DNA of 64,000 bases from Acidobacteriota bacterium (lineage in GTDB: Bacteria; Acidobacteriota; UBA6911; RPQK01; JAJDTT01): positions 2,784,001 to 2,848,000 of the forward strand of contig OZ242374.1 in NCBI GenBank assembly GCA_965209055.1, given 5' to 3'. Each line of letters opens with the position of its first letter. Positions within the stretch are counted from its first letter, which is position 1. The notes beneath the pieces are model-generated. The model ran no database searches and had not been told where the DNA came from. It saw nothing but the letters and a program-made list of their open reading frames with translations. Below are positions 1 through 16,777 of the stretch, in pieces. Position numbers and translations under genes: made by a program.

Positions 1-508
1 CCATCAGTTCACCCTTACTTGTCTCTAGACGCTTAAGGAACTGGCGTACCTTCTTGCCTCGACCACCGCCGTCCCAAAGAACCGATACATCGGGGATATA
101 CTCGGGGTCCTTTACAACTGCGGCATCGGCGACCTCGAAGCTGCCGTCCCGGGGGCGAAACGCTATACGAATCCGCGAGGCGGTGTAGTCGCTACGGAGC
201 ACTTCTTTCCCCGTTAGCACTGTGTAGAGACTGGTCAAGCGCTGCTGTCCGTCTACGATCATGAGGCGCGGTGCAGCTTCGTGGGCATGCGTGCCGATTC
301 GACGGGCACCTATTTCGACGCCGGTTGCCCAGAAGAGCAGATTGCCAACGGGGAAACCACGGTACATCGAGTCAAAGAGGTCTCGGACCTTAGCCGGCTT
401 CCAGACAAACGGGCGTTGGATGTCCGGCAGAGCGATCTCGCCTCTGTCGATCTCCTCAATTAGGGTGGACAGGCTGTAAGAGCTATCCTTGAAGACGGTG
501 ATTGCCAT
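1..508 (-). CDS. DUF262 (GmrSD-type) protein, N-terminal part; runs off the window edge
   Basis: Manual translation from ATG at 508: MAITVFKDSSYSLSTLIEEIDRGEIALPDIQRPFVWK...LMIVDGQQRLTSLY, with the DUF262 QR and DGQQR motifs. Close paralog of 32143-34428. Confidence 0.85.
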   Translation of the reverse strand, partial: MAITVFKDSSYSLSTLIEEIDRGEIALPDIQRPFVWKPAKVRDLFDSMYRGFPVGNLLFWATGVEIGARRIGTHAHEAAPRLMIVDGQQRLTSLYTVLTGKEVLRSDYTASRIRIAFRPRDGSFEVADAAVVKDPEYIPDVSVLWDGGGRGKKVRQFLKRLETSKGELM

Positions 509-654
509 GTGGAAATTCGGGTAATGGTGGTCTCATTATCCAACTGGGACGCGCAGGGCAACCGAGAGTATACAGACTGCCTCGTTTGCTCCGCAAAACC
601 CTGAATTGACCTACAATAAAACGTCCTGAAGCGGATTCGTTATCTCAAAAGGAA

Positions 655-673
655 GCTAACTGTCCCCGTTTCC
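655..673 (+). repeat. GACYGTCCC junction motif, variant copy
   Basis: GCTAACTGTCCCCGTTTCC between the DUF262 and res genes. Confidence 0.5.
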
Positions 674-789
674 CAACGCACCGTACCTCCCGCTGGGTAA
701 CCGATGGCGACCACTTCGGTCAGGACTCGCTGCAAATTACCTTCGAATATGAGGTGCCGACGCACTCGCCGGCCCTATCCCTTTACGAC

Positions 790-3363: not shown

Positions 3364-3500
3364 TGTTCCAGGCTCTCGATCGCCTTGTAGATCTGGAAGG
3401 GCAACTGCTGGAAGTCGATCTGGTACTTGTGGAGGAAATCGCGATCCAGGTATTTCGTGGGTGCGAAGACGAGCTTTCTTCTTGATCCGGCGCAGCGGAG
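3360..3500 (-). pseudogene. C-terminal remnant of a Type III Mod methyltransferase
   Basis: RKLVFAPTKYLDRDFLHKYQIDFQQLPFQIY resembles Mod C-termini and its stop overlaps the Res start. Resemblance ends at the motif at 3500-3526. Confidence 0.7.
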
Positions 3501-3502
3501 AG

Positions 3503-3526
3503 AAGGTGACCGTCCCCTTCTCACGT
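3503..3526 (+). repeat. GACYGTCCC junction motif
   Basis: AAGGTGACCGTCCCCTTCTCACGT, 23/24 identical to 11472-11495. Confidence 0.8.
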
Positions 3527-3661
3527 CCGGACTGTTGGTCGTGCGCGCTGACGATGAGCGCCGTCCGACCCAACATGCAAGCAGCCACGTAATCGGAGTT
3601 GTCGACCGCCGGACGCTCAACGCCCGATCATCGGCTTGGACACTCAAACGACGTTGTGGCG

Positions 3662-4581
3662 TCATCCAGGTTCCTGCCATTCATACCGCTCGTCCGACTC
3701 CGATTTGCCGCGAACATCCATAACCATCATGCGGCGTATGCCTAACTCTCGGAGCCGTTCTCCGTCGGACCGAAAGACCCGTTGACCTCCATCGCTCTCG
3801 GGCTCAAGCCTAGCCCTATCCTCTGCCGTTGTTTCCTCAACCCCCGTCCTATCGAAATTCCGTCTGGTGTCTTGATTAAGGTCATCGATCGTAGGGGCGT
3901 TCCACCCCGAGAACTCGGGTGGTACCACTACCTCATTGTCCGTAGCGACCGGCACATGGAGGCGTCCGACAGAAACAAACTGAACGAGATGCATATAGTC
4001 CACCTCGGCGATTTCCCACCTCCAGTGCATCGAGACGGATGGTTCGAACAGATAGTGCCAAGGTATGCACTTCTGCTCGACTTCGTCGAGCCTTCTGGTA
4101 AGAAGTGGCACGTCCGCCGCGTCGGCAAGCAAACAGCCAGTCTGGAAAGTCCTGTGACCTCGCCGTCCCTTGGGCTGTTTCCAGATCATTCGCTCTTGTT
4201 CGGTACTGTAGATGCAGTAGACCGGCTTCATTCTTGCAGTGCACGCCCCGGCAATAAGAAGGTCACGCTGTTGTCTGCCGGACGATTTCACTTTGTGTTT
4301 GACCTTCAGGACGCCGTTGCACTGCACCCGCTTTGCTTGTACCCGCATCTTAATTGTTCGCCTGTGCCCGACGATATGCCACTCCCAGTCCGCTCCGCTC
4401 TTCGCTTCCTCGCGCTTCGGGAACGTGCGGACACGTACGAGCTCTGGATGCCGCCGCCTGATTTCCAGAAGATTGCTCTCCGTAATGGTTTCTTCTCCGT
4501 AGCTCACCCAGACGTTGGACGGTGCGAGAATTCCAGATTGCGTGATGTCGAATCGCCCAGTCGGAGCAAGGTGGCAATCAT
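3662..4581 (-). CDS. DUF6615-like PD-(D/E)xK nuclease, probably frameshifted near 4513
   Basis: SYGEETITE...EAKSGADWEW...MRVQAKR. The upstream frame MIATLLRLGDSTSRNLEFSHRP joins to VWVSYGEETIT if one base is added. Confidence 0.6.
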
Positions 4582-4787
4582 GGTTGATTTCAGGTTCTTC
4601 CTCCTCCCGGCACCTGCGGATGAAACTCTGCGATTCCTTACACGGACAGCAATCCGATCCCTATCCAGACACGTATGCACCGTATCCTGCCACATAGACC
4701 TCTTAAACTTTGAGTATAGGCTCGGGCCTGCAAGGGACGCCGGCTACAGCCACCCCTGACTGTCCGAGAGTCTTGGAGGAGCAGGCA

Positions 4788-4805
4788 GGGGACTGTCCCT
4801 TTGTG
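4788..4805 (+). repeat. GACYGTCCC junction motif
   Basis: GGGGACTGTCCCTTTGTG between DUF6615 and the IIG RM gene. Confidence 0.6.
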
Positions 4806-5162
4806 GACAATCCCGGCGCGACGGAGGTGGGGGGCGAAGCGCAGAGTTTCCGGACCCAGGTCGTGGTTTTGCTGGGCGCTGCAGTGGACCCGGCGGCCTT
4901 TTCGGAGATCCTGGTCGAGAAGGGCATTTGGAGCCTGAGTCTCCTGCTGGTCAACCCCGTCCGCTACAGCGAGGATCTGGAACTTTTCTGCTTGGTGCTC
5001 AATCGTGAATTCGACTTGGAGCGCTTAATCCCCTTGGCCGAACCGGTCCAGGTGGAGCAACGCATCGAGTCATCGGATTCCGGAGAATGGCACTGCGGCA
5101 GGGACGGGAACCCCGTATACTGATTGCTCTCGTGCAATAAATAGTGAGGACGAAATTATAGA

Positions 5163-7910
5163 GTGCCCCACCTACGCGAAGAGGTTCTAAACTCCTACCT
5201 CGGCTTGCTTCTTGACAGCTTCGACGGCATCAGCGCAACAACCGAGATGCGTACGTCGAGGTCTGCCATCGATATCACGGTCACTCACTCCGGCGTGCCG
5301 GATCCAGTTCCGATCTTAGTTGAAGCAAAGATTGGAGACTCTCCCGCCAACCGACGGAAGGCTGCCGACCAGGCTCGCTCCCGCCTGCATGGTGCATCCC
5401 GTTCACTTGCATTCGGGCTCTGCTATCCTCGTAACCTGAGGGACGCCTCCGTCTCGGCACACGAGACGCAGGAAGCACTTGCAAGTGCCTCTATTGCCTT
5501 TGCCCCCGTGCGCCGCACGGACTCGAAAACAACGTGGAGAGAAGGAACTGTCGCAGACCTTGCGAACAGCCTTAGAAACACCGATCTGTCCAGGCAGCGG
5601 GTCGCCGATGAGATCGAATGGACTGTTCGTAAAGCGGCCAAATTACTCTACGTGCAGGATTGCGCCAAAGTCGTCGCAAACGCCCTGACGCTACCGAATG
5701 TCAAGGACAAGGATCTGCGTGCCGCCGCGCTTGTGGGGTCGCTGATCCTGTCGAACGCCGCGCTGATTCACCAGCGCCTGCGACTGGTACCGACTCTCTC
5801 GACAATCCCGCCCTTGGAGACGATTCTGGCAGACCAAGGCAATGCGTCCTCGCGTATTCGAGACGCGTGGGGCGCGATTCTCGATATCGACTACCATTCA
5901 GTTTTTTTGCCCGCGCTGACTGTCGTCAACACTCTTTCCGACCGCCAACTCTGGCCCGCCATGGGCTGGATTTGTGAGAATGCCGTTGCCGTCGCCGATG
6001 AGCTTGCCTCGCTCCGCTTCGACCACGCCGGCCCGCTTTACCATCGCCTATTGGCATCCGCGCAATTCGACGGATCTTTCTATACCAACCATGTTTCCGC
6101 GCTCCTACTGGCCCGGCTTGCCCTCCCTGATGACTTGGTGGACTGGTCGGATGTGGACCTCCTCGCACGTCTGAAGGTCATCGATCCCGCCTGCGGGACC
6201 GGCACGTTGCTCATGGCGGCCATGCATACCATCCGCGACCGCCACGACGAGTCGGCACCGGATGGCGCCGAGTCCGACCTCCTGCATCTCGCATTGGTCG
6301 AGGACGCGCTCTATGGATTGGACATCAACCGCCACGGTGTTCAGCTTGCCGCCTGCAACCTGACTCTGGGAAACCCCCGCATCGACTACCGGCGCATGAA
6401 CCTGTTCACGATGCAGCATGGACCGCAGTCCGACGGCGAGGCCAAGGCGGGATCGTTGGAATTCTTGGCCACGGCGAGGGACGAGCGAGACCTCACGAGC
6501 TTCATCAGGCCGCTTGCAACGACCGGAGAGCTGGACGCGGAGCGGGCAGAGCCCGGGGATGCTTCCACCGGCTCGCTTACCGAGCAGTTCGATCTCGTCA
6601 TCATGAATCCTCCGTTCACCCGCAATGACATCCGGAACCGCCAGTACAGCTATCGAGACCGCCGCCGATTGCAGAAACGGGAGATCGAGATTGCGCAGTT
6701 CCTGAAACACCGCAAACCACTCGCATTCAGGGCCATCGACCAGACTAGTGTTAGCACCTTCTTCTCGCCTCTGGCCGACGCATTGCTCAAGAAAGAAGAT
6801 GCAACTCTCGCCAAGGTTGTTCCAACGACAGCGTTGACAAATGCATCAGGTCACTCTGAACGTAAGTTCCTCGCCGATCGATTCCAGATCGAGACTGTCA
6901 TTACGAGCCACGACCCGAGTCGAGTCAATTTTTCGGAGAGCACGACCATCCATGAGTCGCTTCTGGTCGCTCGGCGGCCAGAGACCGAACGTCGTGCCAC
7001 GCGCTTCATCTCCCTCCGGAAAATGCCAACGGACGCGCACGAGGCGATCTTGCTCTCGGACCGAATCAACCTCGGCGAGCCGCTGGGCGAATGGGGAACG
7101 GAACACAGGTGGCCATGGCCGAGAGTGCGCGAAGGAGACTGGACGGCTGCGCTCTACTACCACGCCGAACTGGCGGAGGCGATGCACGATCTGGCGGCCT
7201 TGGCGGCAACCGACCTCGTTCGCGCGGGAAAGATTTGCAGTATCGAGCCGGAGGGGCGGAGAGTTCGAGATGCATTCGTCCGCTATCCAAGGCGGTCAGC
7301 GCCTTGGACCTCGCCTGTGCTTTGGGACCATCCCACGGGGATTCAGACTACGATGCAGGCCGCGGCCGATGTCATGGCGGCCCCGAAGCCTGACAAAGAA
7401 CGATACGCGCATTACACGCTCCTCCCGAAAGCGAGCCGGCTGCTTATCGTCAATCGGCTGCGGACCAACACGGTGCGAGTGGCTGCCTGCTACGCGGACA
7501 ACCCGCTCTTGGGGTCGGCTTGGGTTCCAGTCCGTCCAAAGGCGGCGACTCGAATGTTTGAGAAGGCGCTATGTGCGTGGTGGAACTCGACGCCGGGTGT
7601 CTTGACGCTGCTCCATGCCCGTGCGAAGGCGCTGAACTATTCGCGCTATGCTCTCGATTCGCTTCGTGCTCTCCTCGTGCCCGATCCCGAGTCAGTCGAC
7701 GTCGCGGTACTGGCAGATGCGTTCATCGCTCATCAATCCAGTCCGCTGCAGCCTTGGCCACGCATGAATGAATGTCCCACCCGAGTCGCCCTTGACCGAG
7801 CCGCAGCACGAGTGCTTCGGCTCGACGGACATACCGTAGCGAGGTGGCGCAAGCTGATTGCGAACGAGCCGACAGTGTCAGGTAGTCGTCCCGTATACCC
7901 CATGTCCTGA
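5163..7910 (+). CDS. Type IIG-like restriction-modification enzyme (nuclease plus N6-adenine MTase plus specificity region)
   Basis: N-terminal ID...LVEAK nuclease-like motif, FYT, VIDPACGTGTLL (motif I), YGLDIN, DLVIMNPPF (motif IV). Confidence 0.8.
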   Translation: MPHLREEVLNSYLGLLLDSFDGISATTEMRTSRSAIDITVTHSGVPDPVPILVEAKIGDSPANRRKAADQARSRLHGASRSLAFGLCYPRNLRDASVSAHETQEALASASIAFAPVRRTDSKTTWREGTVADLANSLRNTDLSRQRVADEIEWTVRKAAKLLYVQDCAKVVANALTLPNVKDKDLRAAALVGSLILSNAALIHQRLRLVPTLSTIPPLETILADQGNASSRIRDAWGAILDIDYHSVFLPALTVVNTLSDRQLWPAMGWICENAVAVADELASLRFDHAGPLYHRLLASAQFDGSFYTNHVSALLLARLALPDDLVDWSDVDLLARLKVIDPACGTGTLLMAAMHTIRDRHDESAPDGAESDLLHLALVEDALYGLDINRHGVQLAACNLTLGNPRIDYRRMNLFTMQHGPQSDGEAKAGSLEFLATARDERDLTSFIRPLATTGELDAERAEPGDASTGSLTEQFDLVIMNPPFTRNDIRNRQYSYRDRRRLQKREIEIAQFLKHRKPLAFRAIDQTSVSTFFSPLADALLKKEDATLAKVVPTTALTNASGHSERKFLADRFQIETVITSHDPSRVNFSESTTIHESLLVARRPETERRATRFISLRKMPTDAHEAILLSDRINLGEPLGEWGTEHRWPWPRVREGDWTAALYYHAELAEAMHDLAALAATDLVRAGKICSIEPEGRRVRDAFVRYPRRSAPWTSPVLWDHPTGIQTTMQAAADVMAAPKPDKERYAHYTLLPKASRLLIVNRLRTNTVRVAACYADNPLLGSAWVPVRPKAATRMFEKALCAWWNSTPGVLTLLHARAKALNYSRYALDSLRALLVPDPESVDVAVLADAFIAHQSSPLQPWPRMNECPTRVALDRAAARVLRLDGHTVARWRKLIANEPTVSGSRPVYPMS

Positions 7911-7921
7911 GCGGTCTCCAC

Positions 7922-7933
7922 GGGACCGTCCCC
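7922..7933 (+). repeat. GACYGTCCC junction motif, short copy
   Basis: GGGACCGTCCCC between the convergent IIG RM and herA ends. Confidence 0.5.
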
Positions 7934-8005
7934 AGTAGCGTTCAGCAATACCATTCCTCTTTGTCGCTTCGTCGCGTGTCGGACTTCTGCGAAGATGCCA
8001 GCTCG

Positions 8006-10033
8006 TCAAGGTTTCGTATCGGCCGACCACGTGCGCAATGGTTGGACAATGTCGAAGGGCTCGCTCTTGGGAGCCCACGCCACAAACGGACTCGACGTGC
8101 GTGAGGCGGGTGCTGGATCCGGTAATCGGATTCTCGCTCGCGTCGGGACGTTGAAGGCGCTGCCAACGACAACCGCTTCGCCGGGAGCCAGGATGGTAAT
8201 CTGATCCATCAACCTTCGAGATTGGGAGGGCACGATCTTGCGAAAGTGATCGATGTCTTCGGGGTTCTGGAGGCGGTGAACAACGAAGTTTGCGCACTGC
8301 GAAAGAACGGTCGCGCTAACGTCGCTCGGGCGTTGGCTTGCGGCAATGAGAGAAAGGCCGAACTTGCGGCCCTCCTTTGCAATCCGCTCAAAAGTCTCAC
8401 GGGACACCGCAGAGCCCTTCGACTCGTCTTGGCGACGGGGGCGCACGTAGTTGTGTGCCTCCTCCAGGACGACAACCCACGGCTCCTTGAAACGTGCGGT
8501 GGCCAGCGCGTGTTCACGTACTTCGAGAAGTACCCGACCGATCATGCCGCAAACGTAGGGGAGAACCTCGTGGCCTAGCATTGAGCAATCGACTACGACG
8601 GTCGGTGCTGATTTGTAGTCTCCAATACCGAGCATTGAAAGCCAGTCTCCGATCGAGGTTATACCCAGCGCGTCGTAGTTGTAGAAGGCGTGCCAACGAC
8701 GGTCGTTCCTCCGGTTCTGAATTCGGAGCTGTAGCCCCTGAAGAAACTGTTTGATGCCCCGATCGCCGGGCGCAAGCTCGGCGGCGGCTTCGAGGTTCTG
8801 AGCGTTATCGAGTGTGCTGACCGCGAAATGAACTGGCTTGTCTGCTGTTTGCTCAATCGTGGTGGGTGAGGCATCCAGCCGCCGTTCGGCAGATTCTTTC
8901 ACGCGAAGCAGGGCATCTCGGAACGGGACTTGATCGGGTCCGAAGGACCTTGAGTGGGCCCACTCATTGTCCTTGGCGGGAGCGAGGATGTCATCGATCT
9001 TGTCAACAATCTCCTGCAAGTCCGTTTCCTGTAGTATCCACGGCAGGTAACCGAGGGTTGCCTCCCAGGCCCCGAGGCAGGATTCACCTTTTCTCGCCAT
9101 GTTGGGGTCGTTAATCCAGGCGAGCATTGCACCGATTTGGTTGACTCCGTGCTGAAGGTCCCTGCGTTCCAAAGCGACGCTCGCTCTGGCACCCTTGGCA
9201 AGCGCCCAGAGATTTACGAGGGCAGGCTGTTGCGTTTGCTCGGCGGCGCTCAGCCACTGGCATACCTCGTGAGCATTCATGAGCCAAATCGGCACTGTAG
9301 CCTCGCGTCCGTTTACGTAGATGCGGTTCGGCTGTTTGCCACCCGTGGGTTCCGGCACATCCATGGCCTGGGAATACTCGCCGTTCAGGTCAAGTATGAA
9401 GAAACGAGGTCTTGGCCAAGACTTACCGTGGACCGCCGCCGCCGACTGTAGGAGCGTTGCAATCGTACAGGATTTGCCGGAGCCGGTGTTACCAACTATG
9501 GCGAGAGGCCGCGAAAACAGATCATTGTATGAAGCGACAACTGTGCGATTGGTCGCGGCGGTGGCGCTTCCAACTTCAAGCGCGGAATCGAATGGGTCTT
9601 TCGACAACCAGCCGGCTGGCCTATTCCGAATTGGTGCTCGTTCAAGAACCGTTTGCAGGGTGTTCGTCGTGGCTGGCTGTGCCGGCGTATCCAGGGTTGG
9701 AAGGACAGTTACGCCGGGATCAAAGGCCATCTCACCACCGTGGGTCGATCGGACGACCCCGAGAAGCTGAACCGTTGCGGTGCGTCTCGGACGGACCAGT
9801 TCAAGGGACAGCCGCTGATCTTCTGGCTCAAAAACCTCCCGTGCGTAAAGGTCAGTAATGATTCCCAAGACATCCTCGCCGGCACCGATCGCAAAGGTGA
9901 TGAAGGCGTTGACCTTGACCTGAGTTGCCGCCCCGTCAAGCCCCGCTCGAATCGGGCTTCGATGGTCACGATTCAACTCAACCTTGACTCTGAATCCGTG
10001 CACTTCTACAACGCGCCCGAGCGGCTCAGTCAA
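8006..10033 (-). CDS. herA: HerA/DUF87 ATPase of a Sir2-HerA defence system
   Basis: N-terminal HAS-barrel-like region, Walker A GNTGSGKS, LDLNGEY, Walker B LEEAHNY, KEGRKFG, SQRPS. Confidence 0.9.
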   Translation of the reverse strand: MTEPLGRVVEVHGFRVKVELNRDHRSPIRAGLDGAATQVKVNAFITFAIGAGEDVLGIITDLYAREVFEPEDQRLSLELVRPRRTATVQLLGVVRSTHGGEMAFDPGVTVLPTLDTPAQPATTNTLQTVLERAPIRNRPAGWLSKDPFDSALEVGSATAATNRTVVASYNDLFSRPLAIVGNTGSGKSCTIATLLQSAAAVHGKSWPRPRFFILDLNGEYSQAMDVPEPTGGKQPNRIYVNGREATVPIWLMNAHEVCQWLSAAEQTQQPALVNLWALAKGARASVALERRDLQHGVNQIGAMLAWINDPNMARKGESCLGAWEATLGYLPWILQETDLQEIVDKIDDILAPAKDNEWAHSRSFGPDQVPFRDALLRVKESAERRLDASPTTIEQTADKPVHFAVSTLDNAQNLEAAAELAPGDRGIKQFLQGLQLRIQNRRNDRRWHAFYNYDALGITSIGDWLSMLGIGDYKSAPTVVVDCSMLGHEVLPYVCGMIGRVLLEVREHALATARFKEPWVVVLEEAHNYVRPRRQDESKGSAVSRETFERIAKEGRKFGLSLIAASQRPSDVSATVLSQCANFVVHRLQNPEDIDHFRKIVPSQSRRLMDQITILAPGEAVVVGSAFNVPTRARIRLPDPAPASRTSSPFVAWAPKSEPFDIVQPLRTWSADTKP

Positions 10034-11397
10034 CGAATGTCTCCTTCATCGAATTCACCAGCCGACTTACCGCGCGGAGGTCCCTCGCGAACGAGATGTT
10101 CGACTCGGCGGAGACGAACGAAGTCATCTAGCCATCGGACGTGCGGCATGAGGTTCACTGCAAAGTCCTCGAAGGTGGCCCATTGAGGCGTTCCCTTGTT
10201 TTCTGAAGGGGCACTGGTTAGGAGAAAAGCGCGCTCGCCAGCGGTTTGATAGCGATCTAGACGTTTTTTCAACTGCGCAGGCGGCGTGGGATCAACGATC
10301 AGTACGACCAAGCTCGGGTTGGTTAGGGCCTCGTCGATGATTCGGTTGATGTGCTGATCTCCGAAGCCATAGCCAAGGATCAGAAAGAAAGTCTGAGGAG
10401 TCTTAAGGCGAACGTCGAGAGCTCGGAAGAGATGCGCGTATGGCATCCCGATCGACTGCAGGTACTTGCTCTCGGTCGGGAGAATGGCGGCAGCGTCCTC
10501 CGCATCGCTTCGAAGAAAGTCGAGTCTTTCATTTCGAGACCACCCCTGCCAATCTGTCCAGCGAGGAAGTGATCGAGAATCCGCACGTATAAGCTCACTC
10601 TGGGATTTCCGCCGCCAATCGACGGACCCGTGCAGCTTGTAGAGATGGAAGAACTTATCGAACCGCTGAACTCGACCCTCGGCTACCTCGCCCGGGTAGT
10701 ATAGATCTAGCGCATAGGCAGAGGAGTCGAACTTCGGCTCAACCGTTCCGATGAATCCGGTTGAGTAGCGAATTCGCAGATCGTCAGCTGCCGCCTCCAA
10801 GAGGAGATCGTAGTTGACTGTAAAGAGATGGGCTCTTCCAAGAGTAGGGTCGCGGGCGACGAGTTTCGCCACCAGAGCGTGATGACCTGACGGACCATCG
10901 GTTGAAAAACGTGGAAAAGGCAGTGAGCAGCGGGAGACTATGGTCCTTGAAATGGCCGCCATCAAGCTGGAAAGTTCGCCGGGCTTGAGTTGGACTCCCT
11001 TCGACCCGAAGCGTGCACCCACGGACCGAAACAGTGATCCTGACGCGTTAAGAGCATGTTCTGCGGTGGCAATGCTTGATAGCCACGTCTCAAATCCCAC
11101 AGCGGTGTTGCCTTGGTCCTTCCGAGCCCGCATTACGTCAAACGCCTTGCCGAGGTCGGGGATGCCAGGGCCCAGATCAAGAATGGTGTCCAAGACATGG
11201 TCCTGAAGTCCGGCAAGCGTGACACCGTTCTGTGAGATCGAACATCCAGCTCCAACGAGAATCACCATGTTCTCGATACGAAGCCAATCGGAGAGGAGAG
11301 CCTGGATCCGGTCGAGCGCGTCGGATCGGCTAAGTCCCTCAAGTAGGTCCCCTGATGATGCGTGAAGCTGGTAGACGTTGTCGCGTACCTCATGCAT
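10030..11397 (-). CDS. SIR2-like NADase of a Sir2-HerA defence system
   Basis: LVGAGCS, FTVNYDLLLE, LYKLHGSVDW, GYGFGDQHIN; its stop overlaps the herA start by 4 nt. Confidence 0.9.
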   Translation of the reverse strand: MHEVRDNVYQLHASSGDLLEGLSRSDALDRIQALLSDWLRIENMVILVGAGCSISQNGVTLAGLQDHVLDTILDLGPGIPDLGKAFDVMRARKDQGNTAVGFETWLSSIATAEHALNASGSLFRSVGARFGSKGVQLKPGELSSLMAAISRTIVSRCSLPFPRFSTDGPSGHHALVAKLVARDPTLGRAHLFTVNYDLLLEAAADDLRIRYSTGFIGTVEPKFDSSAYALDLYYPGEVAEGRVQRFDKFFHLYKLHGSVDWRRKSQSELIRADSRSLPRWTDWQGWSRNERLDFLRSDAEDAAAILPTESKYLQSIGMPYAHLFRALDVRLKTPQTFFLILGYGFGDQHINRIIDEALTNPSLVVLIVDPTPPAQLKKRLDRYQTAGERAFLLTSAPSENKGTPQWATFEDFAVNLMPHVRWLDDFVRLRRVEHLVREGPPRGKSAGEFDEGDIR

Positions 11398-11471
11398 GGC
11401 TGTTCCTTATGTCGCTCCACCGGCCAAGAGTCCGCGCTTTGTAAGACTTGGGACTAGTGGTATCAGCAGAA

Positions 11472-11495
11472 AAGGTGACTGTCCCCTTCTCACGT
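11472..11495 (+). repeat. GACYGTCCC junction motif
   Basis: AAGGTGACTGTCCCCTTCTCACGT at the truncation point of the IS transposase. Confidence 0.8.
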
Positions 11496-11894
11496 GCTGA
11501 GAGTCGTGCAAGAGGAACGCCAGTTGGCTGTAGGGCAGTTGCTGCCGGTGCTTGACGATGGCCGCGCGCAGGACCTGCTCCGCGGAGAGACCCGGAGCCC
11601 CTTGACCGGAGGTGGCGTTGTCACACAGATGGTGTAGAGCCAGATCCAGGATCGAGGGATTGCCGTCCAAGATCTTGGATACGGCTCTCAGTTCCTGGGC
11701 GAGTCGGTAATCGGGCCAGAGCCCGGGAAGCGGAAGCTGATTTTCCCGTTTTTGCCGCATTGTTCAATGCCTCGGTTTTGCGTAAGTCTTTTATTTGGCA
11801 CCGATAAACTAACAAACGACTGTGACAAAAACGGGGCATGAAAAGCCCCTTAGTCCTTATTTAACAATAACTTGCGGGTTTGCGGATGAGAACT
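11496..11894 (-). mobile_element. ISNCY-like IS remnant (left end plus truncated transposase 5' part, start at 11760)
   Basis: MRQKRENQL...ELRAVSKILD...GLSAEQVLRAAIVK...YSQLAFLLHDS, cut at the motif at 11472-11495. IS-end-like sequence near 11860-11894. Confidence 0.7.
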
Positions 11895-11939
11895 CGATAA
11901 TTTCTTGGTCTCCACGGGTTCGCGAGAAGGGAGTGAGCA

Positions 11940-12698
11940 ATGGGATTAGATCAATTGGATCGTCAGTTCGAAGTGGCGCTGTCCATCATGGAAACGACCG
12001 TCAACATGTTAGCCGCTCAGGTTCCTCAACCGCAGTTCATAACAGCCAAGAGAAGCTTTCGCTATCGGGAGAAGTCCATTCATCAAGCGATTGTTCAGAA
12101 AATCGCCCGGATGGTGAGCACCCTCCATTCCGCCCGCTTGCTACTAGAGCATGGATTTGTTCAAGAGGTTTGTGTCCTCCAGCGCGTCCTGGGCGAATTT
12201 CAGAGTGATGTGTTGTTCCTAATAATCGGCATCCAAAATCCGACTGATCTGCACAAGAGGTATCTGGAGAGTTTCTACCAGGAGGAGTTCGATACTGAAG
12301 ATCCACTACAATCGACCCACAAGCGACCGTCAATTCCACGAAGGAAGATCGATGCCATGATCGTCAAGTTTCTCAAGAGCGTTCAAGGTTTGGAACTGGA
12401 TCAGAGCACGGTATCTCACTCGTTTATAGCGGTGCATAAGACATACTCGGGGTATGTCCACGGTGCGTCGCCCCAAATCATGGACATGTATAGGGGCTTC
12501 CCTTCCATGTACCATATGAAAGGAATGCGCGAGACGCCTCTATTCCAGACTCATCGGGAAGACCTGACAAACTATTTTATTCGGGGCCTATTTACGGTGG
12601 CAATGTCGGCAGTAGCGTTCGGCATGCCCCGCGAGTGGTCAGCTGAACTGATGAGATATGCGACTTGGTTTTGCAACACATTCGAGTCGCAGAAGTAG
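11940..12698 (+). CDS. Hypothetical protein, DUF5677/HEPN-like
   Basis: 252-aa ORF with LQRVLGE and YSGYVHG motifs, lying in the defence island. Confidence 0.55.
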   Translation: MGLDQLDRQFEVALSIMETTVNMLAAQVPQPQFITAKRSFRYREKSIHQAIVQKIARMVSTLHSARLLLEHGFVQEVCVLQRVLGEFQSDVLFLIIGIQNPTDLHKRYLESFYQEEFDTEDPLQSTHKRPSIPRRKIDAMIVKFLKSVQGLELDQSTVSHSFIAVHKTYSGYVHGASPQIMDMYRGFPSMYHMKGMRETPLFQTHREDLTNYFIRGLFTVAMSAVAFGMPREWSAELMRYATWFCNTFESQK

Positions 12699-12908
12699 AG
12701 TACGCTTTCTACCTTGAGACTAGGATTCTGGCCTCCAGAAAAGTCCACCAAGCGGACTAGGACCTCGATGTGGAGCAGCTTACCGGCGTGGACGTTAGGC
12801 GTCGCGGGCCAGGCTGCCCGCGCCGCGGTCGTTAACTCTGAATCCAGCGCTTCCAGGGATGTCCCCTGCTCGTCCATGCTCTACTCGTGCCCGCTCTAAG
12901 CTGCGCGC

Positions 12909-13565
12909 CTAACCGTCGACTCCAGCACAACGAGCTAACGAGCTCGCCGTAATTCTCAGAAAGTTCAGCCCGGCCAGCACGACCAGGATGAAGATCGCGT
13001 GTAATGCATTCTTCGAGGCCTCATGCGCCACCGCCATCACGCTGACCTTCTGGTTCCCCACCCATTCATTCGAGAGCATGTAGTTCACTTGGAGATTCAG
13101 TAGCCGGACCCGATACGCGTCGCAGGTCTCACCGTCTTGTGGAACGATATCTTCAGGAGAAAGCTCCTGGTAGGACTTCCGCTCAAGACCGGCCAAGGTG
13201 GCTCGTAACAAGAACCAGAGCTGTAAGACCACATAAAGGACGAAGAACATAGCGACAATCTTGATTTCCTCCTCGACTGCGCCCAACACCGAGGAGGCGG
13301 CTAGACCTGCTATGAATGCGGCAGAGAGTACGGAGGTCAAAGTGAACAGGGACATTAGTTTGGATTCCACGCTCTGGACACGCTCTTCTACCTTGGCCAA
13401 GCGCGAGGCAAGGATGCGTTCCACATGGTCTAGGAGATGAGCTTGCTTAGCACTGAAGTAGTCCAAGTATCGGGGCTTGGGCTCTGCATCTCCGATAAGA
13501 TGCGGCCATATCCAGTCCGGGATTCGGTCACAGAATCTTCGCATGCGACTTAGTTGCTTAGCCAT
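12909..13565 (-). CDS. Membrane protein with about 3 TM helices, last gene of the graspetide operon
   Basis: Hydrophobic segments LMSLFTLTSVLSAAFIAGLAA, IVAMFFVLYVVLQLWFLL and ALHAIFILVVLAGLNFL. Start (13565 or 13544) is coupled to the ATP-grasp stop. Confidence 0.75.
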   Translation of the reverse strand: MAKQLSRMRRFCDRIPDWIWPHLIGDAEPKPRYLDYFSAKQAHLLDHVERILASRLAKVEERVQSVESKLMSLFTLTSVLSAAFIAGLAASSVLGAVEEEIKIVAMFFVLYVVLQLWFLLRATLAGLERKSYQELSPEDIVPQDGETCDAYRVRLLNLQVNYMLSNEWVGNQKVSVMAVAHEASKNALHAIFILVVLAGLNFLRITASSLARCAGVDG

Positions 13566-14506
13566 GCTGCAATCCTGTCTGAGATGGGTAGGCCCAGTTG
13601 GTCTTCGATCCAGAGCCATTCACCGTTGGGGTTGATCTCGAAGAACACATAGGTCCCGTCCGGCTTGAGAGCAAAGTCTATAGCGCCAAAGCTGATTCGG
13701 AGGTGGGAGACCAACCGGCGGCAGCGACGAGCGAGTGTTGAGGGTAACTTGTGCGCCCTGTGCTGCAGGTTCGGGTCGTCAGTTGCCCGCCAATCCACTC
13801 TGCTCGATTCTCGGTCCTGGGACAGAATTTCGGCAGCAAAGACCTCCTCCCCCACCACGGTCACACGGATGTCGGAGGATTTCTCCACCTTTTCTTGTAA
13901 AGTGACCGGAGCAACCGCTAATCCGTCGAGGTCATCGAGGTCATCTGGAGCCATCTCGCTGGTGAAGATCGCCTGGTTCCCGTGCGCGCCCGATATGTAG
14001 CCTGAGCTTAAGGCCTTGGCCACTAGCCGAGAGCGGGCTTGGGCAACGCTCCGTGCGGCTGCCGGGTCATTGGTCATTATTGTGAGCGGGAGCGTGAAAC
14101 CTAGTTGGGCAGCCACTGCGAGCTGGTAAGGCTTCCGTTCCGCCCTCCAGATTGCCTGGGGCGAACTCAACCAGCGCTGTGTTGGCAATGCTGCTAGGGA
14201 CCCCAACAGGAACGTGCGGGTCTCCCGTTCGCAGAACTCACGGGTGCCCGAGTCTAGGCATTCGGGCAGATTCGGGGCAACGTTACGTCGATACCAGACG
14301 GACTTGACTTGCCTACCAGAAATGCTCCGTTCTCCGTCAGAGATCGTGAGGGTCCCCTGCGGATCGAAGCTCGCTCGAATTTCCGAAGGGAATCGGTCGG
14401 TGTCCAGCCTGAAGAAGGGAACAGAGCGCCGCTCCAGACCTGCGATCACGTACTCGGGGGCAAGGTCATAGGAGGCCGTCACAAGAAGGACGGTGTCAGC
14501 TGTCAT
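13550..14506 (-). CDS. MvdC/MvdD-like ATP-grasp RiPP macrocyclase (graspetide synthetase)
   Basis: FRLDTDRFP, SVWYRR, AERKPYQL, QEKVEKSSDIRVTVVG, VDWR, FGAIDF, FFEINPNGEWLWIE. Confidence 0.9.
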   Translation of the reverse strand: MTADTVLLVTASYDLAPEYVIAGLERRSVPFFRLDTDRFPSEIRASFDPQGTLTISDGERSISGRQVKSVWYRRNVAPNLPECLDSGTREFCERETRTFLLGSLAALPTQRWLSSPQAIWRAERKPYQLAVAAQLGFTLPLTIMTNDPAAARSVAQARSRLVAKALSSGYISGAHGNQAIFTSEMAPDDLDDLDGLAVAPVTLQEKVEKSSDIRVTVVGEEVFAAEILSQDRESSRVDWRATDDPNLQHRAHKLPSTLARRCRRLVSHLRISFGAIDFALKPDGTYVFFEINPNGEWLWIEDQLGLPISDRIAAWLSN

Positions 14507-14636
14507 CCGTCGTTTCGCGAGAAACCTTGGTCACGAGGGTTCCTCTCTTCGAAAGCGCGGCATCCGTGTTGGACTTGTCCTTTTCCTTAGGGAGATGTAG
14601 TGCGAACTTTGCTAGGAATGGTACATTTGCAGGCAT
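14496..14636 (-). CDS. Graspetide precursor peptide, 46 aa (not in the ORF track)
   Basis: TAAGGAGG RBS, then MPANVPFLAKFALHLPKEKDKSNTDAALSKRGTLVTKVSRETTDDS*. It has a PFLxxFA leader motif and a TxxTKxxxExxDD core, and overlaps the ligase start. Confidence 0.88.
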   Translation of the reverse strand: MPANVPFLAKFALHLPKEKDKSNTDAALSKRGTLVTKVSRETTDDS

Positions 14637-15035
14637 CAAAATCCTCCTTATTCGTGCTTCCTCAAAGGCGATAGACTTGTCAGTTGTCGGCGCACTGGGT
14701 GCGCCCCTATTTGGCCGCCAATAGGCGTCTGAACCCTTGAGGTACCAATTCGCTTTGGCGAAAGGGATTATATACGAGTCTTCCCAGAATTTTCACAACG
14801 CTGCCGGTGGTTTCTTTGGCGCCGTGACCGCACGGGATGTTCACCAGATCAAACTTGGAAATGGACGTCGGCAGTCAGGTGTTTACGGCGTTTCCGATCG
14901 TGCCAAGTTCTGGAATACTGTCCCTGTGATCCTGTTCTACGATGACTTGTTGAGAATAGCTCGGAAAACGACCCTTCCCTGGAACCCCTTGGCCGACTGG
15001 AGGCGGCGATCCTCACAATCGCAGTGCGGGACAGG

Positions 15036-15058
15036 AAAGTGACCGTTTCCTTCTCGCG
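15036..15058 (+). repeat. Junction motif, degenerate copy
   Basis: AAAGTGACCGTTTCCTTCTCGCG. Confidence 0.55.
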
Positions 15059-15392
15059 ATGTTCATTTTCTGGCCGCTCACGCCCCCTTTTCGCGGTCGA
15101 GAAGGCATTCGTGCAAAGAGGTGGTTGCACACTTCTCATCTGAGTTCCTATTTAAGACTGAAGTCAATTTCGTTGCCGTTGCAGTGAGCAATGGAGGCGG
15201 CCGATAAACCGAAATCGTCCGCCACATCAGAAGCAATGGGTCCAACGCCGGGGAGAATCAGGAAATCCAGAAGGGCAGGACCTGGCTTAACGAGGGTCAG
15301 AATCAAGTCTGCCCTGATGGCTACGAAAAATATCAGACTGCGCCGCCGTTGGGCCGCGGATCTCGAATGCTGTAAAGGAAGAAACCCCGGAC

Positions 15393-15438
15393 GAGAAAGT
15401 GAATGTCCTTCTCCCAAGATAGGGACGGTCCACTTTCT
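15393..15438. repeat. Inverted pair of junction motifs at the right end of the defence island
   Basis: GAGAAAGTGAATGTCCTTCTCCC followed by AAGATAGGGACGGTCCACTTTCT (reverse complement AGAAAGTGGACCGTCCCTATCTT). Confidence 0.55.
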
Positions 15439-15598
15439 GCGCCCGTCCTTCTCCCAACATTCCTGCCGGAATTTCAGTGGCTCCTGGTTCCCCTGGATTG
15501 GTGGCCTTGGTCACCGTGATTCGGAGTAATCCGGCGCGGTTTGTTTTCAGACCTCTTCCTCCCAGTAAAGATCCAAATAATAATCTCGACTATGAATT

Positions 15599-16633
15599 CT
15601 ATGAAGTATCCCATACCTTCTTGGCACTCTTCTCGGTGGCCTTTCTTATCGCACTGTCCCCCTTGACCACGGGCCGCATCGCACTGATGTGCTCAGGCCC
15701 CGACGCACAGCAACCGCCGACAACCTGCGCTCCCATCCGCTTCCAGTTCCGTGCGAATTCAGCCATCCGCGAGGGATAGTATTCGGCGTTCTGCAGAATA
15801 TCGGGACCCGAGCTGACCCTCTGGTTGGTCAGCATGGGAGGGTTAACTATCGGGCCTGTGGGATTGTAGCCCAGGTTGGGATAGGCCCCGACCGGACCGG
15901 AGAAAGCCCTCCGGAGGCGCGGCAATCCGACTGAGATCGCCTTCGGGTTGCTGCACATCAGCAGGATCGCTCCCACGCGACGTCCCTCCAGAGCGTCAAC
16001 CAGATCCTCCAGTCGCTCGCCATATTGCATGGTGCCGTCCGGCCGGATATGCCGAATGCCCAGAAACACGGTTGCGCCCGCCTCGGTACAGGCGTCGACG
16101 GCGGTCACCGCGTCCTCGATGAAGCCCACGTACTCAGCCTGGATCAAATCCACTCCCATCTCGACCAGGAGCTTGGCGTGTTCCGCCCACTCCCGGAAAC
16201 AGGCCTCCCGCCCCATCTGCCGGGTGTCGGACACCGCGCCCGATTCCGGCCGCCCCTGCAAGGTGGGAGCCGCGATGCCACCGGCCACGTAGGCTGCAGG
16301 GTTGTGGTTGTCCCGGGCCTTCAGCGCAATCTCGGCGGCCGCCCGCGCGTAGCGTCTCCACTCCCGGCCCAGCCCGCACCGCTCCAGCCGGGTCGGCGAC
16401 GTCCAGAAGTTGTTGCTGGTGATGATGTCTGCTCCGACGCGCAGGTAATCCTGATGGACCTGCTGCACGACGTCGGCGAATTCGAGGTTCGCGGTGGCCG
16501 ACCAGGCCTTCAGGCCGTCCTTCGCGCCCACGAGGACATCGACGCCGCGTCTTTGCAGTTCGGAACCGGTGCCCCCGTCCAGGAGCAGCGATTGACCCTC
16601 GTTCAACCGGTCCAGGATGGGAGGTCTGGGCAT
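15599..16633 (-). CDS. Homocysteine S-methyltransferase family protein
   Basis: LLLDGGTGSELQRRG, HQDYLRVGADIIT, GAYPN, VGGCC zinc-binding motif. Confidence 0.9.
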   Translation of the reverse strand: MPRPPILDRLNEGQSLLLDGGTGSELQRRGVDVLVGAKDGLKAWSATANLEFADVVQQVHQDYLRVGADIITSNNFWTSPTRLERCGLGREWRRYARAAAEIALKARDNHNPAAYVAGGIAAPTLQGRPESGAVSDTRQMGREACFREWAEHAKLLVEMGVDLIQAEYVGFIEDAVTAVDACTEAGATVFLGIRHIRPDGTMQYGERLEDLVDALEGRRVGAILLMCSNPKAISVGLPRLRRAFSGPVGAYPNLGYNPTGPIVNPPMLTNQRVSSGPDILQNAEYYPSRMAEFARNWKRMGAQVVGGCCASGPEHISAMRPVVKGDSAIRKATEKSAKKVWDTS

Positions 16634-16777
16634 GGATCCAGTAGGGGACACGGTAGGCCTCAGAATATCATTGCGGCTTCAGGTGCGTTTGCCGGTACTT
16701 GGCGGGCAGGGCATAAACACTTTCCATTCAATCACGCCTCTGCGAAATAATGGGGGACAAACTAGGAGAGACACGCC

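What the first reader, a model, noticed from the sequence alone, without database searches (positions are those of the whole stretch)
12909..14650. Minimal graspetide operon with a membrane effector inside a defence island: candidate RiPP-based anti-phage system
Seen: a strong RBS precedes an unannotated 46-aa precursor (PFLAKFA leader, single core TLVTKVSRETTDDS). It overlaps an MvdD-like ATP-grasp ligase, which is coupled to a ~3-TM protein. No protease, ABC exporter or acetyltransferase is nearby; the neighbours are Sir2-HerA, RM and GmrSD-like genes. Established: graspetide ligases link Thr/Ser/Lys to Asp/Glu and give protease-inhibiting peptides. Inference: the TM protein layout (TM pair after ...VESK, then ...N..NQK..MAVA before the last helix) recalls Pycsar-type membrane effectors. 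The cyclised peptide may therefore stay intracellular as a sensor, plug or antitoxin controlling a death effector instead of being a secreted metabolite.
Basis: partly seen in the sequence, partly recalled or inferred. Interest (0 to 1): 0.85.

Follow-up and report, generated by a model that had tools for sequence, protein, structure and literature searches.

The report
Graspetide operon with obligate membrane partner
A real three-gene cassette (small peptide, the enzyme that ties it into rings, and a three-helix membrane protein that always travels with them) sits in a variable island full of anti-phage genes, which makes a role in phage defence a fair but unproven idea.

Summary
On the minus strand lie a 46-aa precursor (14496-14636, AAGGAGG 6 nt upstream), an MvdD/MvdC-type ATP-grasp ligase (13550-14506) and a 218-aa three-helix membrane protein (12909-13565), with 11- and 16-nt overlaps. 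The membrane gene is an obligate partner: the ligase lies directly upstream of it in 33 of 34 homologous loci that have upstream DNA. These come from Chloroflexota, Gallionella and two proteobacterial plasmids. The core T-x-x-T-[KR]-V-x-R-E-T-T-D-D is exact in 20 of 25 precursors, although the membrane protein falls to 26% identity. The cassette lies at the edge of a ~30 kb hypervariable hotspot that also holds GmrSD, a type III-like RM system and SIR2-HerA. It was not found in 60 related genomes. Known defence genes flank the cassette in at least 9 of 22 non-redundant loci, but I had no matched control. The PycTM resemblance is one of layout only; homology is marginal (hhalign probability 7-10%, no Pfam hit). 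"Precursor + ligase + membrane protein of unknown function" is already described for plesiocin and thuringinin clusters. Best reading: a mobile graspetide module whose membrane partner handles or releases the peptide (~0.45). The RiPP-based abortive-infection reading stays open (~0.3).

The parts
14643..14649 (-). Shine-Dalgarno AAGGAGG, 6 nt before the precursor ATG
   Evidence: read directly
14496..14636 (-). Graspetide precursor, 46 aa: leader helix motif PFLAKF, variable linker, Gly-Thr junction, C-terminal 14-aa core T-L-V-T-K-V-S-R-E-T-T-D-D-S
   Evidence: Homologous precursors found in 19 of 27 related loci plus 2 plasmids
13550..14506 (-). ATP-grasp graspetide ligase (MvdD/MvdC-like), 318 aa; start overlaps the precursor stop by 11 nt
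   Evidence: The best solved relatives are the microviridin-type ligases 5ig8 (5.7e-57) and 5ig9 (5.8e-54)
12909..13565 (-). Obligate membrane partner, 218 aa, with no Pfam or NCBIfam family. Predicted N-in. A cytoplasmic N-terminal ~68 aa is followed by a TM hairpin, a ~60-aa cytoplasmic helical segment and a third TM helix. Its start overlaps the ligase stop by 16 nt.
14767..14796 (-). Promoter-like site about 130 nt upstream of the precursor (GTGAAA-18-TATAAT); not above chance
   Evidence: 2 sites found against 1.0 +/- 1.0 in shuffles
1..15656 (.). Window part of a ~29.7 kb hypervariable hotspot; the island starts about 14 kb left of the window. Cargo: GmrSD-like gene, type III REase, DUF6615, large MTase, HerA, SIR2, two ORFs without a family, and the graspetide operon at the right edge. 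GC is 0.53-0.56 at 10-16 kb against 0.63-0.65 in the conserved flank.

Best explanation
This is a horizontally mobile, minimal graspetide (RiPP) cassette.

Shown:
- A short precursor, a microviridin-type ATP-grasp ligase and a three-helix membrane protein are translationally coupled.
- They are inherited as one unit across phyla.
- The cassette is accessory cargo of a variable genomic hotspot.

Inferred from the family:
- The PFLAKF leader helix docks on the ligase's pre-ATP-grasp domain.
- The ligase uses ATP to esterify Thr1/Thr4 of the C-terminal core to Glu9 and Asp12/13. Lys5 is often Arg, so it is probably not a cross-linking residue.
- The product is a small bicyclic hairpin that displays a basic [KR]-V-x-R loop, the shape of a trypsin-type protease inhibitor.

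Inferred, weakest step:
- The conserved polar motifs of the membrane partner all sit at the cytoplasmic face of the membrane. It receives the modified peptide there and lets it out or processes it, acting as a small oligomeric conduit or release protein. This is the role already guessed for the uncharacterised membrane proteins of thuringinin loci.
- The defence-island address then reflects that such cassettes ride in the same variable hotspots as defence genes.
For: - Ligase identity.
- Leader and core: the Phhx(1,2)h-type leader and donors-before-acceptors core match the published graspetide rules (Makarova 2022 section 5; passages).
- Coupling and co-inheritance: (33 of 34 loci).
- Core conservation: 20 of 25 precursors match T-x-x-T-[KR]-V-x-R-E-T-T-D-D exactly. 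A Gly precedes the core in many precursors, read by eye from the listing and not counted, which would suit a cleavage site.
- Several precursor variants per locus, and four-core precursors on the proteobacterial plasmids, are typical of secreted multi-domain inhibitors.
[quoted passage not shown] Makarova's cluster 18 membrane proteins are specific to thuringinin loci that lack transporters, and were guessed to act in peptide transport (passages).
- Accessory status: 0 of 60 related genomes, 7 of 401 phylum genomes, hotspot boundaries, GC dip.
Against: - No export function is shown. A 3-TM protein without an ATPase or MFS fold is not a known RiPP exporter type.
- The core is far more conserved than the enzymes. 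This is unusual for secreted inhibitors and fits a conserved partner or target better.
- Defence genes directly flank the cassette in several non-syntenic loci.
- The TM protein has a PycTM-like layout and recurrent sub-threshold hits to PycTM and CBASS 2TM effector models.
- I could not test whether the thuringinin or plesiocin membrane proteins belong to this family.
Confidence: 0.45

Rival explanations
1. RiPP-based abortive-infection or defence module. The membrane protein is a PycTM/SLATT-like pore-forming death effector. The ligase-made graspetide is its intracellular ligand: an activator made or released on infection, or an inhibitor of a phage protease working beside the effector.
For: - Hotspot cargo in the window is otherwise almost all defence: GmrSD, type III RM, SIR2-HerA.
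- In non-syntenic relatives the cassette directly abuts other defence genes. L001: PDC-S35. L005: HmaB/HmaC plus a GmrSD-like gene. L003: a large MTase upstream, with CBASS CapV and a CD-NTase 155 nt downstream. L023: a type II RM pair. L026: DrmA 3 kb away. L002, L003, L008, L015, L016, L018 and the window: a homologous Eco57I-like MTase.
- The pooled 145 neighbours also hit dGTPase, HEC-05, PDC-M55C and PDC-S51.
- Layout matches PycTM. Median segments are 70/14/65/13 aa against 31/11/74/5 aa, and the AlphaFold helix order is the same.
- Weak model hits: 32 of 59 family members hit the CBASS 2TM model and 23 of 59 hit a PycTM model at E<=1, best about 1e-4.
- A PycTM HMM scores above 10 bits on 7 of 103 members, against 0 of 103 reversed controls.
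- 9 of 30 language-model neighbours are clusters labelled PycTM in 11% of members.
- hhalign aligns the family's E-x-K before helix 1 with PycTM's invariant D-x-K.
- There is no exporter or protease in the operon, and the core is highly conserved.
Against: - hhalign probability is only 10% and 7%.
- The window protein has no PADLOC or Pfam PycTM hit even at E<=1.
- The reverse HMM test equals its control, 8.7 against 8.4 bits.
- Foldseek finds nothing at E<=0.001 in PDB or BFVD.
- The nearest neighbours scanned in L004, L009, L011, L013, L019, L021, L022, L024, L027 and L030 had no PADLOC hit. The two plasmid loci carry no named defence gene.
- There is no control for background defence density.
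- RiPP clusters are reported to co-localise with defence and mobile genes anyway (PMC12715929, title and abstract start only).
- All characterised graspetides are protease inhibitors (passages).
- Multi-core precursors are odd for a signal or antitoxin.
Confidence: 0.3
2. The membrane protein is a biosynthetic partner, not a conduit or killer. It would be a membrane scaffold or activator that the ligase needs, or the leader peptidase that cuts at the conserved Gly-Thr junction.
For: - Translational coupling with a 16-nt overlap kept in L001-L005 and L008.
- TM and ligase identities fall together, from 58% with 82% down to 26% with 38%.
- Partner-protein-dependent graspetide ligases are now known (abstract and passages).
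- A membrane-protein scaffold was proposed for microviridin (reference title seen).
- The conserved His, Glu, Ser, Lys and Asp residues cluster at the cytoplasmic membrane face.
Against: - There is no similarity to any peptidase or chaperone family.
- Characterised single-ligase graspetide systems work without such a partner. That statement is recalled and not checked here.
Confidence: 0.15
3. Peptide-antitoxin model. The TM protein is constitutively toxic, and the cyclised peptide plugs or neutralises it. Decay of the peptide after phage shut-off then kills the cell.
For: - Gene order with the small, strongly translated gene first.
- Two or three precursor copies in some loci.
Against: - In L004 the precursor and all but the last 52 codons of the ligase are gone, replaced by an IS, yet the TM ORF is intact at 226 aa.
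- The ligase is apparently frameshifted in L003 and L007 while the TM ORF stays intact. These could be assembly errors; L007's break lies in a homopolymer-rich stretch.
Confidence: 0.05

Closest known systems
Microviridin-type graspetide clusters (MdnA-E)
   Same: - The leader motif PFLAKF resembles PFFARFL.
- The ligase's best solved relatives are 5ig8 and 5ig9 at 5.7e-57 and 5.8e-54. The table calls them only 'ATP grasp ligase'; that they are MdnB and MdnC is my recollection. 7m4s 'AMdnB' follows at 1.2e-48.
   Different: - One ligase, not two.
- The core has no TxKxPSD motif (for the motif).
- No acetyltransferase or ABC transporter-peptidase.
- An obligate 3-TM partner instead.
[quoted passage not shown]
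   Same: - The same three-part layout of precursor, single ester-forming ligase and membrane protein (legend).
- No dedicated transporter.
- The proteobacterial plasmid members carry multi-core precursors, like those families.
   Different: - The ligase is only distantly similar to 7drm at 3.4e-14. That 7drm is plesiocin PsnB is my recollection.
- Members of the Chloroflexota clade have one core at the very C-terminus.
- Whether their membrane proteins are homologous to this family was not tested. I had no sequence, supplements were closed, and Ramesh 2021 is not held.
Pycsar membrane effector PycTM (PF18967, former DUF5706)
   Same: - Three-helix layout with an N-terminal cytoplasmic helix running into a TM hairpin.
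- A 65-74-aa cytoplasmic segment, then a last TM helix.
- An acid-x-Lys motif before helix 1 and a conserved Lys before helix 3.
   Different: - No PF18967 match.
- The partner is an ATP-grasp ligase plus a peptide, not a pyrimidine cyclase. The typical system is a TM protein plus the cyclase PycC.
- Profile-profile probability is 7-10%.
CBASS 2TM / SLATT-type effectors
   Same: Recurrent weak hits of family members to PADLOC 'Effector 2TM' (32 of 59 at E<=1) and RTasSLATT (4 of 59).
   Different: The hits are sub-threshold and probably carried by the TM hairpin. There is no nucleotide-signal enzyme in the operon.

Membership tests
Graspetide (ATP-grasp-modified RiPP) cluster | MvdD/MvdC-type ATP-grasp peptide maturase | tested here: met
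   PF21068 1.8e-20 (73.6 bits, cut-off 27). TIGR04187 5.5e-81, though its 272 bits are below the subfamily cut-off of 350. PDB 5ig8 5.7e-57.
Graspetide (ATP-grasp-modified RiPP) cluster | Adjacent short precursor with a Pro-hydrophobic leader helix motif and a core in which Thr/Ser/Lys donors precede Asp/Glu acceptors | tested here: met
   PFLAKF leader and T..TK...E..DD core.
Graspetide (ATP-grasp-modified RiPP) cluster | Side-chain ester or amide macrocycles on the mature peptide (water losses) | not testable with these tools
   Needs co-expression and LC-MS.
Microviridin (group 1) cluster | Two paralogous ligases, a TxKxPSD-type core, and an acetyltransferase and ABC transporter | tested here: not met
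   There is one ligase, and the core lacks the motif. Pfam scans of the island neighbours show no GNAT or ABC protein.
Thuringinin/plesiocin-type minimal cluster with membrane protein | Three-gene layout: precursor, single ligase, membrane protein of unknown function | tested here: met
   Layout, compared with the figure legend.
Thuringinin/plesiocin-type minimal cluster with membrane protein | Membrane protein and ligase homologous to those of the named clusters | not tested
   I held no thuringinin or plesiocin membrane-protein sequence. The ligase matches 7drm only at 3.4e-14.
PycTM / Pycsar effector (PF18967) | Match to the PF18967 profile above its cut-off | tested here: not met
   No hit at E<=1 for the window protein. 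The own genome has no match at E<=0.001. One of 59 relatives (P0035) carries a precomputed PF18967 label.
PycTM / Pycsar effector (PF18967) | Encoded next to a pyrimidine cyclase (PycC) | tested here: not met
   The upstream gene is an ATP-grasp ligase. None of the ten island proteins scanned hit a cyclase model. The typical system is described.
PycTM / Pycsar effector (PF18967) | Remote homology by profile-profile comparison | tested here: inconclusive
   hhalign probability 10% (E 0.0031, 135 columns) and 7% (E 0.005, 58 columns). The HMM test beats reversed controls in one direction only.
PycTM / Pycsar effector (PF18967) | Three-helix membrane layout with cytoplasmic N-terminus and long TM2-TM3 segment | tested here: met
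   91 of 103 family members have three hydrophobic segments, with medians of 70/14/65/13 aa. Among PycTM proteins, 17 of 33 have three, with medians of 31/11/74/5 aa. The models show the same helix order.
Anti-phage defence system (generic) | Enriched next to known defence genes compared with background | tested here: inconclusive
   Defence genes lie within 7 kb in at least 9 of 22 non-redundant loci, plus one ambiguous.
Anti-phage defence system (generic) | Protects a host against phage | not testable with these tools
   Bench test.

The most novel reading that the evidence does not exclude
The cassette is a ribosomal-peptide-based anti-phage system. An ATP-grasp ligase turns a genetically encoded peptide into a cyclised ligand that controls a PycTM-like membrane effector, or that blocks a phage protease while the effector executes the cell. 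It would be a peptide counterpart of the nucleotide-signal systems Pycsar and CBASS, spread across Chloroflexota and Proteobacteria (517 family representatives).
Probability: 0.27. Interest if true: 0.88.

Novelty: new variant of a known kind. Interest (0 to 1): 0.55.

Why it matters
Graspetides are known only as protease inhibitors, and the small membrane proteins in their minimal clusters have never been explained. This work defines a large family of such partners: 517 representatives at 50% identity, with no Pfam entry. It shows that the family is strictly tied to one ligase clade and one near-invariant core. It also shows that the cassette repeatedly lands beside restriction, CBASS, Hma, DISARM and SIR2-HerA genes. 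That gives a concrete three-gene construct with which to ask whether a RiPP can act in phage defence, or to learn how minimal graspetide clusters release their product. Either answer fills a gap.

Tried and rejected
- Pfam and NCBIfam on the TM protein and the precursor gave nothing significant.
- Foldseek of the TM model (pLDDT 74.9) found no match at E<=0.001 in PDB or BFVD, only generic long-helix proteins. A PDB sequence-profile search with the family found nothing meaningful.
- Complex prediction with ligase and TM protein returned no verdict (score 0.00, controls not run). It is not evidence either way.
- The look-up of sequencing runs listed no RNA holder, so I did not use read laying.
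- A tblastn of the TM protein against the plasmid collection found no match. Two plasmid members surfaced only through the ligase search and were then confirmed with a family HMM.
- There is no tRNA in window 1-22000 and no Rfam family in 11000-17000. No terminator-like site follows the TM gene, and promoter-like sites are at chance level.
- I looked for a conserved small gene upstream of the recurrent MTase and found none. The small ORFs there are unrelated to each other.
- I first read the 117-aa ORF at 11407-11760 as a transposase fragment. Pfam gives no family for it, so I dropped that label.
- I considered filing the cassette as thuringinin-like, but could not verify the group motifs. Ramesh 2021 is not held, and the supplements of Makarova 2022 and Carter 2026, which may already list this partner family and its group number, are closed.
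- I wanted a control for defence enrichment using random loci of the same genomes.
- Literature searches for a published link: graspetide + 'phage defense' found 3 papers, none on such a module. ATP-grasp + PycTM found 0 papers. With graspetide plus defence terms, 20 of the 2,542 papers were listed, and the only listed one that holds the word graspetide is a P. gingivalis ICE preprint on grasp-with-SPASM clusters that have type I secretion genes.
Full report
**The observation**

The minus strand of 12909-14650 carries three tightly packed genes.
- **Precursor.** A 46-codon ORF starts at the ATG at 14636, with AAGGAGG 6 nt upstream. It encodes a peptide with the leader motif PFLAKF and a C-terminal 14-residue core.
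- **Ligase.** The precursor's stop overlaps by 11 nt the start of a 318-aa ATP-grasp protein (13550-14506). This protein matches the MvdD pre-ATP-grasp domain (PF21068, 1.8e-20). It also matches the ribosomal-peptide maturase models TIGR04187, MvdC and MvdD (5.5e-81 to 5.9e-68). All three scores are below the curated cut-offs, so it is not an equivalog of any named subfamily. Its closest solved relatives are microviridin-type ligases (5ig8 5.7e-57, 5ig9 5.8e-54). 7drm is far weaker at 3.4e-14.
- **Membrane protein.** The ligase stop overlaps by 16 nt the start of a 218-aa protein (12909-13565). Homologues show that the MAK start is the real one, not the upstream ATG at 13619. It has three hydrophobic segments at about 70-94, 100-127 and 187-209. 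It matches no Pfam or NCBIfam family.

- SIR2 and HerA (PADLOC 2.2e-130 and 7.5e-217);
- a type III restriction enzyme (1.2e-168);
- a 915-aa N6-methyltransferase;
- GmrSD-like genes at the left window edge and at 33751-34383.

**Are the genes real, and do they belong together?**

The membrane protein has 59 relatives in the 90%-clustered collection. A profile of them finds 517 representatives at E<=0.001, of which 302 are at E<=1e-10, in the 50%-clustered library.

I fetched 9 genome loci and 20 metagenome loci that encode a relative. The genome loci come from Dehalococcoidia and other Chloroflexota, plus one Gallionella. In all 27 loci that have DNA upstream of the membrane gene, an ATP-grasp homologue lies directly in front of it. 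L025 and L028 begin inside the membrane gene. In L004 only the last 52 codons of the ligase remain.

Two proteobacterial plasmids show the same layout: Croceicoccus pCME4A9I and a P. aeruginosa RW109 plasmid. The family HMM scores their downstream proteins at 1.1e-15 and 1.4e-17.

A phylum-wide scan found the family in 7 of 401 genomes. Of the six new loci, five have upstream DNA, and four of those five carry the ligase. The fifth, L051, is a 67-residue partial match.

Together that is 33 of 34 loci. Ligase and membrane-protein identities fall together, from 82% with 58% down to 38% with 26%.

**The peptide**

My core pattern found precursors in 19 of the 27 loci and on both plasmids.
- Four of the eight misses have under 200 nt upstream.
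- L004 has an IS at that position.
- L026, L029 and L030 may have divergent cores.

Of 25 single-core precursors, 20 match T-x-x-T-[KR]-V-x-R-E-T-T-D-D exactly. All 22 full-length precursors, that is all but the three cut at contig ends (L013, L014, L022), match the broad P-h-h leader pattern I scanned for. Most are close to P-F-L-x-[KR]-F; L009 and L023 depart from it. The linker between leader and core varies freely in length and sequence. A Gly precedes the core in many precursors.

The leader fits the published Phhx(1,2)h rule and resembles the microviridin motif PFFARFL. The order of donors before acceptors fits the rule quoted. Lys5 alternates with Arg, so it is unlikely to be a cross-linking residue. 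I infer two esters from Thr1 and Thr4 to Glu9 and Asp12/13, enclosing a basic loop. Only mass spectrometry can show this.

The core is much better conserved than either protein. This is the opposite of most secreted RiPPs and suggests a fixed partner or target.

**Genomic setting**

The operon was not found in any of 60 related genomes: 8 of the same genus, 6 of the same family and 46 of the same order.

All five same-genus genomes tested align to the right flank starting at window position ~15656, the 3' end of the homocysteine S-methyltransferase gene. Left of that gene they carry different DNA. The conserved left flank of G002 matches the own genome about 14 kb left of the window. The hotspot in this genome is therefore ~29.7 kb long, and the graspetide operon sits at its right edge. 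GC is 0.53-0.56 at 10-16 kb, against 0.63-0.65 in the flank.

The island cargo in the window, from left to right:
- a GmrSD-like gene;
- a type III REase;
- DUF6615;
- the MTase;
- HerA and SIR2;
- two ORFs without any family;
- the operon.

**Defence neighbourhood in relatives**

The flanks of the loci are not syntenic, so the contexts are largely independent. Loci where defence genes lie next to the cassette:
- **L001:** PDC-S35 lies directly upstream (3.5e-17).
- **L005:** HmaB and HmaC lie directly upstream (about 1e-94 to 1e-96), with a GmrSD-like gene beside them.
- **L003:** a large MTase lies upstream. A CapV-like phospholipase (1.2e-37 to solved CBASS phospholipases) and a CD-NTase start 155 nt downstream. 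A GmrSD-like gene follows further on.
- **L023:** a type II MTase/REase pair lies downstream (5e-201, 1.7e-61).
- **L026:** DrmA lies 3 kb away (2.3e-87).
- **L002, L003, L008, L015, L016, L018 and the window:** a homologue of the window's 915-aa MTase (26-28% identity) sits beside the cassette. It is upstream in the first three loci, downstream and convergent in the next three, and 5 kb away in the window.

I also pooled 145 neighbour ORFs: those of at least 100 aa within 7 kb, from 151 after I dropped six duplicates or very short ones. These additionally hit dGTPase, HEC-05, PDC-M55C, PDC-S51, E1-E2 and two GmrSD_N models. They also hit at least nine transposase-type models and many housekeeping families.

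Against this:
- The nearest neighbours I scanned singly in L004, L009, L011, L013, L019, L021, L022, L024, L027 and L030 had no PADLOC hit.
- L007 is ambiguous, with an MTase-like protein and a radical-SAM protein.
- The two plasmid loci carry no named defence gene.

Counting non-redundant loci, at least 9 of 22 have a recognised defence gene within 7 kb. I could not run a matched control, so this is suggestive and not a measured enrichment.

**Is the membrane protein PycTM-like?**

PF18967 is the PycTM profile. It does not match the window protein, even at E<=1, and it finds nothing in the own genome at E<=0.001.

Sub-threshold signals:
- One of 59 relatives carries a precomputed PF18967 label.
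- In PADLOC scans at E<=1, 32 of 59 members hit a CBASS '2TM effector' model. The three PycTM models were hit by 23, 21 and 12 of 59 members, best E about 1e-4.
- In the more diverse set, 8 and 5 of 103 members hit PycTM models at E<=0.01.
- The window protein itself hit none.

Direct tests:
- I built PycTM alignments from six genomic PycTM proteins, and from those six plus 27 relatives.
- hhalign gave probability 10% (E 0.0031, 135 columns) and 7% (E 0.005, 58 columns). The alignments are in register. The family's E67-x-K69 falls on PycTM's invariant D-x-K before helix 1, and K173 falls on the conserved Lys before the last helix.
- A local test with reversed-sequence controls was one-sided. 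The PycTM HMM scored above 10 bits on 7 of 103 members, against 0 of 103 reversed. The family HMM on PycTM proteins did no better than on reversed ones (8.7 against 8.4 bits).
- In a protein-language-model search, 9 of 30 neighbours were clusters in which 11% of members carry PF18967 (score 0.93). The other 21 were unnamed.

Layout is clearly shared:
- Median segment lengths are 70/14/65/13 aa for the family (91 of 103 members with three segments). For PycTM they are 31/11/74/5 aa (17 of 33 with three segments).
- The AlphaFold models show the same helix order. The family model has helices 39-93, 99-127 and 148-213 (pLDDT 74.9). The PycTM model has 22-64, 69-90 and 138-190 (pLDDT 85.3).

My reading: the protein works like a PycTM-type small membrane protein in shape, but membership is not shown.

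**What is already known**

- Makarova et al. 2022 list an uncharacterised membrane-protein family (cluster 18, 198 occurrences). It is specific to thuringinin loci that lack transporters, and they guess a role in peptide transport. They leave another family (cluster 40) unexplained.
- Carter et al. 2026 report graspetide groups whose co-occurring proteins match no Pfam model, and the first partner-dependent ligases.

The three-gene layout is therefore a known kind. I could not decide whether this membrane family is theirs, because I had no sequences, supplements were closed, and Ramesh 2021 is not held. I found no paper that links a graspetide ligase to a PycTM-like protein or to phage defence.

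**Mechanism and odds**

Shown: a co-inherited, translationally coupled cassette of precursor, ligase and membrane protein, carried as accessory cargo in a defence-rich hotspot. The rest is inference.

- **Best reading (0.45).** This is a graspetide biosynthetic cassette. Its membrane partner takes the cyclised peptide at the cytoplasmic face and releases or processes it.
- **Main rival (0.3).** This is an abortive-infection-type module in which the membrane protein is the effector.
- **Biosynthetic scaffold or leader peptidase (0.15).** This remains possible.
- **Peptide-antitoxin variant (0.05).** This is disfavoured by L004, where an IS removed the precursor and ligase but left the membrane ORF intact, flanked by two copies of the same transposase.

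Some longer family members carry C-terminal extensions. Some have extra hydrophobic segments plus a block that looks to me like an OmpA/MotB-type peptidoglycan-binding motif. Others have collagen-like Gly-Pro repeats. I read these by eye and did not test them. They point to an envelope-facing C-terminus but do not settle the function.

**Verdict**

This is a new variant of a known kind of cluster.

Noticed in passing
window 4805-5089 (inside ORF 4710-5123); also G000 C1 2769618-2769954, 2772221-2772571 and 2772625-2772940 (left of the window): A repeat of about 300 bp occurs four times in the island (76-82% identity to the G002 flank). It also sits at the hotspot edges in G001 (L048 7753-7997) and G002 (L047 573-962). 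It may be a hotspot-associated repeat or a small paralogous gene.
   Followed up: partly
window 11940-12698 (+): A 252-aa ORF convergent with the membrane gene has no Pfam or PADLOC family. A 69%-identical DNA stretch lies in the different hotspot cargo of same-genus genome G001 (L048 4112-4657). It therefore moves independently of the graspetide operon.
   Followed up: partly
L002 6032-8911, L003 5787-8642, L008 3779-6685, L015 3392-5680, L016 4469-6757, L018 1325-3613; window 5163-7910: A large (760-970 aa) Eco57I/N6-type methyltransferase family, 26-28% identical to the window's copy, recurs next to the cassette in seven loci and in two orientations. In L002 and L003 it ends 22 nt before the precursor. 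A functional link is not excluded.
   Followed up: partly
L003 10755-12684: A CBASS pair starts 155 nt after the membrane gene: a CapV-like patatin phospholipase (1.2e-37 to solved structures) and a CD-NTase (6.9e-10). A HigB/HigA-like pair, judged by eye, lies upstream of the MTase in the same locus.
   Followed up: partly
L004 8263-12199: The membrane gene is intact, but the ligase is cut to its last 52 codons and the precursor is absent. The gene is flanked by two copies of one transposase family (441 and 478 aa). This is a natural 'ligase knock-out'.
   Followed up: partly
proteins P0146, P0160, P0191; P0158, P0175, P0197: Longer family members carry C-terminal extensions. Three have extra hydrophobic segments and a conserved block resembling an OmpA/MotB peptidoglycan-binding motif. 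Three have collagen-like Gly-Pro-x repeats. This was read by eye only.
   Followed up: no
protein P0060 (3544 aa): A giant protein matched the family profile in 34 short stretches (profile positions 41-72). This is probably a coiled-coil repeat artefact rather than a relative.
   Followed up: no
window 32143-34428 (-): A second GmrSD-like gene (GmrSD_N 3.2e-28, 819-aa open frame) has an identical-scoring copy elsewhere in the genome at C1 3701191-3701823, which suggests a duplicated element.
   Followed up: no
window 3662-4507 (-): A DUF6615 protein (5.9e-09) lies between the type III REase and the divergent MTase. It has no PADLOC model and may be an uncharacterised component of that restriction-like system.
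   Followed up: no
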